Assembly (NCBI RefSeq): GCF_048403405.1
Contig: NZ_CP183129.1
DNA length: 64,000 nucleotides
Reading direction: 5' to 3' (one strand)
From: Escherichia coli
Lineage (GTDB): Bacteria; Pseudomonadota; Gammaproteobacteria; Enterobacterales; Enterobacteriaceae
Shown one piece after another: positions 47,901 to 50,900 of the stretch. The position numbers are program-made. Every line of letters begins with the position of its first letter. Positions within the stretch are counted from its first letter, which is position 1.

Positions 47901-50900
47901 AGGATCACCGCATCATAAGGCGCACTATATAGCGCCTCTTTTCCCTGACGACCTTGTGTAAACCAGTCGACGCTAAAACCCATTTTACTAAGGCCCGTTT
48001 TGATGCCGTCGCCAATCAGCATGTCATCTTCTATCAGTAAAATTCGCATTTTTTCATCCCTGCGATAACCGTATTTGCTGCCAGTAAACCGTGTTGTAAC
48101 GCGCTCTGTACAGCATTAAATTTTATTTTTTTCCCTTAAGAAGTTGTTAAGGACTATCTTGTTAAATGCTCGGAAACAGACATTAAAGGGAGTAATAAAC
48201 ATGAAAAAATTCGCAGCAGTAATCGCAGTAATGGCCCTGTGCAGCGCACCGGTGATGGCAGCAGAGCAGGGCGGTTTTTCTGGCCCATCGGCAACGCAAA
48301 GTCAGGCCGGAGGATTCCAGGGGCCGAACGGCAGCGTAACGACCGTAGAAAGCGCAAAATCCCTGCGTGACGACACCTGGGTAACCCTGCGCGGCAATAT
48401 CGTTGAACGCATCTCTGACGATCTCTACGTGTTCAAAGATGCCAGCGGTACTATCAATGTTGATATCGACCACAAACGCTGGAACGGCGTGACGGTGACG
48501 CCGAAAGATACGGTTGAGATTCAGGGTGAAGTCGATAAAGACTGGAATTCTGTTGAAATTGACGTCAAACAGATCCGCAAAGTAAATCCGTAATTGTTAC
48601 CGCTCCCGGGACGCATTCCCGGGAATAATTTCGCAGGGAGGCAAAATGACAAACCTGACACTGGATGTAAATATTATCGATTTCCCATCAATCCCTGTGG
48701 CGATGTTGCCGCACCGCTGTAGCCCTGAGTTGCTCAACTACAGCGTGGCGAAATTTATCATGTGGCGTAAAGAGACGGGGCTTTCTCCTGTTAACCAAAG
48801 CCAGACTTTTGGCGTCGCCTGGGACGACCCTGCCACCACCGCACCGGAAGCGTTTCGCTTTGATATCTGCGGCAGCGTTAGCGAACCGATCCCCGATAAT
48901 CGTTATGGTGTGAGTAATGGTGAACTTACCGGTGGACGTTATGCTGTGGCCCGCCATGTTGGCGAGCTGGACGATATTTCACACACGATATGGGGCATCA
49001 TTCGCCACTGGCTACCTGCAAGCGGCGAGAAAATGCGTAAAGCACCGATTCTGTTTCACTACACCAATCTTGCCGAAGGAGTGACAGAGCAGCGACTGGA
49101 AACGGATGTTTATGTACCGTTAGCGTGATGGAGAATCTTTACCGGAGTGTGAGCCACATCACTCGCGATAAGTTTGAGCGAACAATGCCACAGGCGTATT
49201 GTTGTCGGGCTTATAATTTCTCCGGTAAGGAATACCATGTATACGCGAAATTTATTATGGCTGGTCAGCCTGGTAAGTGCGGCTCCTCTCTACGCTGCTG
49301 ACGTTCCCGCCAACACACCGCTCGCCCCGCAACAAGTCTTTCGTTACAACAATCATAGCGACCCAGGTACGCTCGACCCGCAAAAGGTAGAGGAGAATAC
49401 TGCCGCGCAGATTGTGCTGGATCTGTTTGAAGGTCTGGTATGGATGGACGGTGAAGGCCAGGTGCAGCCCGCTCAGGCTGAACGCTGGGAGATACTGGAC
49501 GGCGGCAAGCGCTATATTTTCCATCTGCGTAGCGGTTTGCAGTGGTCAGACGGTCAGCCTCTGACGGCAGAGGATTTTGTCCTCGGCTGGCAGCGCGCGG
49601 TTGACCCGAAAACGGCAAGCCCTTTTGCTGGCTATCTGGCACAGGCGCACATTAACAATGCCGCGGCTATTGTTGCGGGTAAAGCAGATGTTACATCGCT
49701 GGGTGTCAAAGCGATGGATGATCGTACTCTTGAAGTTACGCTTGAGCAGCCGGTTCCTTGGTTCACGACGATGCTCGCCTGGCCGACGCTGTTCCCGGTT
49801 CCCCATCATGTCATCGCGAAATATGGCGATAGCTGGAGTAAGCCTGCGCATATGGTTTACAACGGTGCCTTTGTGCTTGAACAGTGGGTAGTTAACGAAA
49901 AGATTACTGCACGCAAAAATCCAAAGTACCGCGATGCGCAACATACAGTATTGCAACAGGTTGAGTATCTGGCGCTGGATAATTCGGTCACCGGCTATAA
50001 CCGCTATCGCGCGGGAGAGGTCGATCTCACCTGGGTTCCGGCGCAGCAAATTCCCACCATTGAAAAATCACTGCCTGGCGAGCTACGAATTATCCCGCGT
50101 CTGAACAGCGAATATTACAACTTTAACCTTGAGAAACCGCCATTTAACGATGTGCGGGTGCGTCGGGCGCTATATCTTACGGTTGATCGACAGCTTATTG
50201 CGCAAAAGGTACTGGGGTTGAGAACGCCCGCAACCACGCTGACGCCGCCAGAGGTAAAAGGCTTTAGCGCGACGACGTTCGATGAACTGCAAAAGCCAAT
50301 GAGTGAGCGTGTCGCGATGGCAAAAGCCTTGCTGAAACAGGCGGGATACGACGCCTCTCATCCGCTACGCTTTGAGCTGTTCTACAACAAGTACGATCTG
50401 CATGAAAAAACCGCGATAGCGTTGTCTTCCGAATGGAAAAAATGGCTGGGTGCACAGGTGACGCTGCGCACAATGGAGTGGAAAACTTATCTTGATGCCC
50501 GACGAGCCGGTGATTTCATGCTGTCGCGGCAGTCGTGGGATGCGACGTATAATGATGCTTCCAGCTTCCTGAACACGCTCAAAAGCGATAGTGAAGAAAA
50601 CGTCGGTCACTGGAAAAATGCGCAGTATGACGCCTTACTAAACCAGGCCACGCAGATCACTGATGCGACAAAGCGTAATGCGTTGTATCAGCAGGCAGAA
50701 GTGATCATCAACCAACAGGCACCGCTGATTCCTATCTACTATCAGCCGTTAATCAAACTGCTTAAACCCTACGTTGGCGGTTTTCCGCTGCATAATCCCC
50801 AGGATTATGTCTACAGCAAAGAGTTGTATATCAAGGCACATTGATGCCTTTATCGCCGTCGGAGCACGTCCGGCGGCGCTATTCACGCTGATCTCCTGTG

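What the first reader, a model, noticed from the sequence alone, without database searches (positions are those of the whole stretch)
49129..49236. mqsR-mqsA toxin-antitoxin pair absent between ygiV and ygiS
From memory, K-12 has the MqsR/MqsA toxin-antitoxin genes between ygiV and ygiS. Here ygiV ends at 49128 and ygiS starts at 49237, leaving about 108 bp. This looks like an empty site for that module. The region contains no ORF and no remnant of the mqsA operator palindromes that I can recognise.
Basis: partly seen in the sequence, partly recalled or inferred. Interest (0 to 1): 0.4.

Follow-up and report, generated by a model that had tools for sequence, protein, structure and literature searches.

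The report
Ancestral empty site lacking mqsRA
This E. coli strain has never-occupied DNA between ygiV and ygiS where K-12 carries the MqsR/MqsA toxin-antitoxin genes, which is the ordinary state of most E. coli genomes and of sister species.

Summary
ygiV ends at 49128, ygiS starts at 49237, and the 108-bp spacer has no mqsR, mqsA or MqsA operator palindrome. The window is 99.998% identical to E. coli strain U1.

K-12-type genomes carry a 928-bp mqsR-mqsA cassette exactly where the window has the hexamer GGAGAA (49130-49135). The remaining 101 bp of the spacer are shared.

Three Escherichia lineages outside typical E. coli (E. albertii, E. whittamii and a divergent record labelled E. coli) have the same empty ygiV-spacer-ygiS arrangement and keep the hexamer. 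The empty site is therefore the ancestral sequence state, and mqsRA is an insertion. The cassette is 41.6% G+C against 52-53% in the flanks, has no terminal repeats, and has relatives on plasmids of other Enterobacterales.

Of 5,426 complete E. coli genomes, 2,298 (42%) carry mqsRA. About 1,770 look like the window. Another 1,357 lack mqsRA and also have ygiS replaced by a short filler. The U1 chromosome has no mqsRA copy elsewhere, and no plasmid record in that collection matched the mqsRA core.

Variable presence of mqsRA is already in the literature, so interest is low. One side observation: the spacer folds unusually stably as RNA (z = -4.5), with a 12-bp stem covering the ygiS ribosome-binding site.

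The parts
48646..49128 (+). ygiV, a GyrI-like small-molecule-binding protein that RefSeq labels an AraC family regulator. It is the left flank of the site.
   Evidence: ORF list. RefSeq annotation of the near-identical strain U1. Pfam PF06445, E = 7e-37.
49129..49236 (+). Native 108-bp ygiV-ygiS intergenic spacer. This is the unoccupied mqsRA site.
   Evidence: It is conserved in E. albertii, E. whittamii and the divergent lineage L007.
49130..49135 (+). Hexamer GGAGAA. K-12-type genomes have the 928-bp mqsRA cassette here instead (L001 2031-2958). The left breakpoint is ambiguous by 1 nt because both alleles share a G.
   Evidence: Alignment A1. The hexamer, or GGGGAA / GGGGA variants of it, is kept in all empty alleles and in the outgroups. 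Coordinates.
49136..49147 (+). 5' arm (TCTTTACCGGAG) of a 12-nt inverted repeat. It begins at the first base after the cassette insertion point.
   Evidence: the repeat finder I1, 92% complementary, 72 nt between the arms. It forms the outer stem of the minimum-free-energy fold.
49212..49217 (+). Perfect -10-like hexamer TATAAT with no recognisable -35. It is a candidate ygiS promoter element only.
   Evidence: Sequence. The consensus scan found no full sigma-70 site. PMC5120126, Table 1, cites RegulonDB for a putative promoter upstream of ygiS.
49220..49231 (+). 3' arm (CTCCGGTAAGGA) of the inverted repeat. It contains the ygiS Shine-Dalgarno-like AAGGA at 49227-49231.
49237..50844 (+). ygiS, a periplasmic family-5 solute-binding protein. 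It is the right flank of the site.
   Evidence: ORF list. RefSeq annotation. Pfam PF00496, E = 1e-83.

Best explanation
The interval is the native ygiV-ygiS intergenic spacer in its ancestral, never-occupied sequence state.

In one branch of E. coli that includes K-12, a 928-bp AT-rich cassette was inserted 1-2 nt after the ygiV stop codon. It replaced about 6 nt of the spacer. The cassette carries its own operator/promoter region, mqsR, mqsA and a terminator. The insertion was probably an illegitimate (non-transposase, non-integrase) recombination event. The cassette was then inherited vertically and moved between lineages by homologous recombination through the conserved flanks.

The window's strain, U1 or a near-identical one, belongs to the majority of E. 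coli that lack the module altogether.

Shown here: the absence, the breakpoints, the outgroup state, the composition and the population frequencies. Inferred: the insertion mechanism and the route of spread.
For: - Sharp breakpoints with colinear flanks: 928 bp in K-12 against GGAGAA in the window.
- Outgroups E. albertii (L010), E. whittamii (L009) and the divergent Escherichia record L007 all have ygiV, a spacer of about 110 bp, then ygiS, with no MqsR or MqsA match. They keep the hexamer that K-12 lacks.
- The intergenic region containing the cassette is 41.6% G+C (mqsR 40.1%, mqsA 42.2%). ygiV is 53.2% and ygiS 52.3%.
- MqsRA-family modules at 66-73% nucleotide identity sit on plasmids of Rahnella, Rouxiella, Pectobacterium and Yersinia.
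- mqsRA is present in 2,298 of 5,426 complete E. coli genomes. All copies are at least 99% identical, all are chromosomal, and 2,283 genomes hold at least 80% of the whole K-12 ygiV-ygiS interval.
- Between K-12 and an O145 strain the cassette is 99.25% identical and its flanks 98.6-99.4%. The cassette has therefore diverged along with its flanks.
- The U1 chromosome has no second match place for the mqsRA core.
- Literature: chromosomal type II TA systems, mqsRA included, are accessory, unevenly distributed and integrated in intergenic regions (PMC7167474; PMC5120126). B2 strain NRG857c lacks MqsRA (PMC7232551).
Against: Only five outgroup loci were recovered, and two of them have a decayed ygiS.

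An ancestral sequence state does not strictly prove that U1's own lineage never carried the cassette. Homologous replacement by an empty allele would restore exactly this sequence.

No donor with a near-identical cassette was found, so the source and the insertion mechanism remain inference.

Very distant MqsRA-family paralogues (below about 65% nucleotide identity) elsewhere in the U1 genome were not excluded, because no protein-level search of the full genome was possible.
Confidence: 0.9

Rival explanations
1. Secondary loss. An ancestor of this strain carried mqsRA at this site and lost it, either by a precise deletion or by homologous replacement with an empty allele from another lineage.
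For: Flank-mediated allelic replacement is plausible in E. coli. Both alleles coexist in the species with nearly identical flanks. This includes an O145 carrier whose flanks are about as far from the window (97.9%) as those of the O157-sized empty-site genomes H18 and H19.
Against: A simple deletion would not regenerate the GGAGAA hexamer shared with E. albertii, E. whittamii and L007. No cassette remnant of any kind is present. The 60 records ranked highest for the window part of the chimeric query each have a single match place, so none has a separate mqsRA copy.
Confidence: 0.08
2. The module is not absent but relocated or disguised. A divergent MqsR/MqsA homologue would sit elsewhere in this genome, or a degenerate remnant would sit in the spacer.
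For: Nothing positive was found. The only support is that blastn cannot see homologues below about 65% identity, and that the U1 plasmids were covered only through the collection-wide search.
Against: tblastn of MqsR and MqsA against the window gives a best E of 0.8. The spacer aligns base for base with outgroup spacers. In the sensitive blastn search, all 2,298 mqsRA-positive genomes are at least 99% identical, with no hits at lower identity and none on plasmids. U1 shows one match place only.
Confidence: 0.02

Closest known systems
E. coli K-12 mqsR-mqsA (ygiU-ygiT, b3022-b3021) locus between ygiV and ygiS
   Same: Same chromosomal neighbourhood: qseC-qseB / ygiW-ygiV ... ygiS-parC. ygiV is 97.5% identical and ygiS 98.6%. 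The 101 bp immediately upstream of ygiS are shared at 98%.
   Different: The 928-bp cassette is missing, and a 6-nt ancestral hexamer stands in its place. The cassette comprises two ACCTTTTAGGT operator palindromes, mqsR, mqsA and a terminator.
[quoted passage not shown] Fiedoruk et al. 2015 and Ramisetty & Santhosh 2016, as cited in PMC7167474 and PMC5120126; also the decay of ccdO157, Mine et al. 2009, cited in PMC7167474.
   Same: A small promoter-plus-TA cassette is integrated between core genes, has atypical composition, lacks transposase or integrase hallmarks, and is unevenly distributed among lineages (here).
   Different: Nothing differs in kind. This window is simply the unoccupied allele. 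The points added here are the base-level breakpoints, the outgroup polarity and the counts in 5,426 complete genomes.
Plasmid-borne MqsR/MqsA-family modules of Rahnella, Rouxiella, Pectobacterium and Yersinia
   Same: They are homologous to the K-12 cassette's coding part at 66-73% nucleotide identity, which shows that the family travels on mobile replicons.
   Different: They are too divergent to be the direct donor. Their non-coding ends do not align with the cassette: only query positions 297-897 match.

Membership tests
MqsR/MqsA type II toxin-antitoxin module | An ORF encoding an MqsR toxin (Pfam PF15723) | tested here: not met
   K-12 MqsR matches PF15723 (E = 5e-35). tblastn of MqsR against the whole window gives a best E of 0.83 over 24 aa. 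The spacer ORFs have no Pfam match.
MqsR/MqsA type II toxin-antitoxin module | An adjacent ORF encoding an MqsA antitoxin (Pfam PF15731, zinc-binding N-terminal domain plus HTH-XRE C-terminal domain) | tested here: not met
   tblastn of MqsA against the window gives a best E of 5.6. RefSeq annotates nothing between ygiV and ygiS in U1.
MqsR/MqsA type II toxin-antitoxin module | Operator palindromes 5'-ACCT(N)2-4AGGT upstream of mqsR (two copies of ACCTTTTAGGT in K-12) | tested here: not met
   The K-12 interval has two. The window spacer has none. Three occur elsewhere in the window, at chance level. No near-match to TAACCTTTTAGGT lies in the spacer.
Unoccupied (ancestral) insertion site of an accessory gene cassette | Flanks colinear with the occupied allele, and sharp breakpoints | tested here: met
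   Alignment A1: identical flanks, with 928 bp against 6 bp.
Unoccupied (ancestral) insertion site of an accessory gene cassette | Outgroup species share the empty state and its exact junction sequence | tested here: met
   E. albertii, E. whittamii and the divergent lineage L007 have ygiV, about 110 bp, then ygiS, with the hexamer conserved and no MqsR/MqsA.
Unoccupied (ancestral) insertion site of an accessory gene cassette | The inserted segment has foreign composition and relatives on mobile replicons | tested here: met
   41.6% G+C against 52-53% in the flanks. Plasmid-borne relatives exist in other Enterobacterales.
Transposon, insertion sequence or integrase-mediated island (as the vehicle of the K-12 cassette) | Target-site duplication, terminal inverted repeats, or a recombinase gene / att-like direct repeats | tested here: not met
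   There is no exact inverted match of 6 nt or more between the cassette ends. The longest direct match across the junctions is 5 nt. The cassette holds only mqsR and mqsA. No phage record matches it.

The most novel reading that the evidence does not exclude
The 96-nt core of the spacer (49136-49231) may be a conserved cis-acting RNA leader whose outer 12-bp stem sequesters the ygiS ribosome-binding site in read-through transcripts from ygiV (or from mqsA in K-12). Transcripts started at the internal TATAAT would escape this. The mqsRA cassette landed exactly at the 5' edge of this structure, so K-12 mqsA read-through and ygiS translation would be coupled through it. That could bear on the disputed MqsR-ygiS-deoxycholate link.
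Probability: 0.2. Interest if true: 0.3.

Novelty: already known. Interest (0 to 1): 0.08.

Why it matters
It matters little beyond correct annotation. K-12 is the derived form here: most E. coli genomes and sister Escherichia species have no MqsR/MqsA. Phenotypes attributed to this module in K-12 (biofilm, persistence, bile tolerance, GhoT control) therefore cannot be generalised to strains such as this one.

The base-level definition of the cassette and of the ancestral junction is useful for designing clean deletions. A deletion that reproduces the natural empty allele would avoid the polar effects on ygiS discussed in PMC6918082 and PMC5120126.

Tried and rejected
- Cassette remnants in the window: tblastn, short-word blastn and palindrome searches found none.
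- An ectopic mqsRA copy in the matching genome: a chimeric-query trick found none on the U1 chromosome. The sensitive blastn search found no divergent or plasmid copies in any complete E. coli genome.
- Mobile-element hallmarks at the cassette ends: no terminal inverted repeat and no target duplication. The phage collection has no match.
- A known RNA family in the spacer: Rfam gave only noise, with the best hit an archaeal snoRNA model at 15 bits against a gathering score of 40.
- Covariation support for the spacer fold: six Escherichia sequences show no compensatory change, so the test is uninformative.
- A full sigma-70 promoter or an intrinsic terminator in the spacer: no promoter was found, and the one weak terminator-like hit is at chance level.
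- Whether the 248-nt filler that replaces ygiS in a third allele is a structured RNA or a group II intron remnant: z-scores were +1.1 and +0.7, and there was no Rfam hit. Rejected.
- The genome-contig scan returned only Escherichia loci. Salmonella, Citrobacter and E. fergusonii were therefore not sampled.

Full report
**Observation.** The window is E. coli. It aligns over all 64 kb with the chromosome of strain U1 (NZ_CP041359.1) at 99.998% identity, with a single gap. ygiV occupies 48646-49128 and ygiS starts at 49237, so the spacer is 108 bp. RefSeq annotates the same two genes in U1 with nothing between them. Pfam confirms the flanks: YgiV is GyrI-like and YgiS is a family-5 solute-binding protein. 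The only ORFs touching the spacer are mechanical overlaps of 42 and 58 aa with no family match.

**The K-12 arrangement.** A K-12-type record is annotated ygiV - 204 bp - mqsR - mqsA - 132 bp - ygiS - parC. These are the same spacers given in Table 1 of PMC5120126.

**Junction anatomy.** Alignment of the two alleles gives sharp breakpoints.
- After the ygiV stop codon and one T, K-12 has 928 bp (L001 2031-2958). This holds the region with the two ACCTTTTAGGT operator palindromes, mqsR, mqsA and a terminator-like hairpin with a T-run.
- The window has only GGAGAA there (49130-49135).
- The next 101 bp (49136-49236) are shared at 98%.
- The cassette has no terminal inverted repeat of 6 nt or more and no direct repeat longer than 5 nt across its junctions. 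It encodes no recombinase.
- The interval holding it is 41.6% G+C, against 52-53% for ygiV and ygiS.

**No remnant and no second copy.**
- tblastn of MqsR and MqsA against the whole window gives nothing better than E = 0.8.
- The spacer holds no ACCT-N2-4-AGGT palindrome. The three elsewhere in the window are at chance level, as are near-matches to the extended operator.
- A chimeric query of 2.5 kb of window DNA plus the mqsRA core put U1 at the top of the list with a single match place. The U1 chromosome therefore has no mqsRA.
- A sensitive blastn search with the mqsRA core found it in 2,298 of 5,426 complete genomes. All copies are at least 99% identical. None is on a plasmid and none is in a lower identity band.

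**Polarity.** A scan of species-representative genomes with YgiV returned five Escherichia loci. E. albertii, E. whittamii and a divergent record labelled E. coli (94% YgiV identity) all have ygiV, a spacer of about 110 bp, then a full ygiS, with no MqsR or MqsA. Their spacers align base for base with the window's and keep the hexamer (GGGGA / GGGAAT variants) that K-12 lacks. The other two loci, Escherichia sp. MOD1-EC7003 and E1V33, also lack mqsRA and have a decayed ygiS. The empty sequence is therefore ancestral and K-12 carries an insertion that removed about 6 nt. A plain deletion of the cassette could not recreate the ancestral hexamer. Only replacement by an empty allele could, and I rate that rival at about 0.08.

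**Origin of the cassette.** MqsRA-family modules at 66-73% nucleotide identity lie on plasmids of Rahnella, Rouxiella, Pectobacterium and Yersinia. No phage record matches. Between K-12 and an O145 strain the cassette is 99.25% identical and its flanks 98.6-99.4%. This fits one old insertion followed by co-divergence with the flanks. The insertion mechanism (illegitimate recombination) is inference.

**Population picture.** There are three alleles.
- ygiV-mqsRA-ygiS: 2,298 genomes, or 42%. Of these, 2,283 hold at least 80% of the whole K-12 interval.
- An allele with no mqsRA in which all but the first ~22 nt and the last few codons of ygiS are replaced by a filler of about 250 nt: 1,357 genomes.
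- The window's allele, ygiV-ygiS: about 1,770 genomes by subtraction. This is consistent with the 4,013 genomes that cover at least 80% of the junction query.

**Literature.**
- Type II TA systems are accessory in E. coli. None is shared by four reference strains from phylogroups A, B1, E and B2 (PMC7167474).
- They are described as horizontally transferred cassettes integrated in intergenic regions, mqsRA between ygiV and ygiS included (PMC5120126, citing Ramisetty & Santhosh 2016 and Fiedoruk et al. 2015).
- The B2 strain NRG857c has no MqsRA (PMC7232551).
- PCR surveys find mqsRA in about half of urinary isolates (PMC11059956).

The finding is therefore real, correctly interpreted and already known.

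**What the spacer itself holds.** As RNA the spacer folds to -42.6 kcal/mol. Shuffled controls average -27.3 kcal/mol, giving z = -4.5, and none of 200 shuffles folds as well. The outer stem is a 12-nt inverted repeat, 49136-49147 and 49220-49231. Its 3' arm contains the ygiS Shine-Dalgarno-like AAGGA. The cassette insertion point abuts the 5' arm. The structure is conserved in sequence in six Escherichia alleles, but there is no compensatory change to test it, and it matches no Rfam family. A perfect TATAAT lies inside it at 49212-49217 without a recognisable -35. A leader that blocks ygiS translation in read-through transcripts is a reasonable but untested idea.

Noticed in passing
window 49136-49231: The ygiV-ygiS spacer folds very stably as RNA (-42.6 kcal/mol, z = -4.5). 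A 12-bp outer stem pairs 49136-49147 with 49220-49231 and covers the ygiS Shine-Dalgarno sequence. It is sequence-conserved across Escherichia species, has no Rfam family, and offers no covariation to test it. The mqsRA cassette of K-12 sits exactly at its 5' edge.
   Followed up: partly
L002 6653-6900 (E. coli SCU-102; not in the window): A third allele at this locus. In 1,357 of 5,426 genomes, all but the first ~22 nt and the last few codons of ygiS are replaced by a single-copy, GC-rich filler of about 250 nt and unknown origin. Copies are 90-100% identical, most around 95%, so the allele is old. It is not unusually structured (z = +1.1 and +0.7), has no Rfam hit and no convincing ORF.
   Followed up: partly
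L006 4553-4922 and L008 3713-4140: Escherichia sp. MOD1-EC7003 and Escherichia sp. E1V33 carry different internally deleted ygiS remnants. Together with the SCU-102 allele, this points to repeated independent loss of ygiS in the genus.
   Followed up: no
window 44467-45659 (minus strand): An orphan Hcp-family type VI secretion gene and an adjacent 236-aa hypothetical protein lie between mdaB and ygiZ. They are absent from the SCU-102 locus, where qseC directly abuts mdaB. This may be a small T6SS Hcp-effector islet.
   Followed up: no
window 15432-15581 and 15808-15957: Two tandem Sib antitoxin RNAs (Rfam RF00113, 139 and 143 bits), matching the two Ibs type I toxin genes annotated in U1. These are the known ibs/sib type I toxin-antitoxin loci, so this region keeps other TA modules while lacking mqsRA.
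   Followed up: no
hits H31 and H71 (E. coli strains 203740 and HUM3355): In some mqsRA-positive genomes an IS1 element splits mqsR, which is annotated as two pieces. This is natural inactivation of the toxin gene.
   Followed up: no
PLSDB records NZ_MG591698.1 and NZ_CP141089.1: A 354-kb E. coli plasmid carries the mqsRA cassette at 99.8% identity, so a chromosomal segment probably sits on a large plasmid. A 4.9-Mb record filed among the plasmids is evidently a chromosome.
   Followed up: no
window 44224-44233: An MqsA-box-like palindrome, ACCTCAAGGT, lies just upstream of the mdaB start codon. Its count in the window is at chance level, and it is moot in a genome without MqsA.
   Followed up: yes
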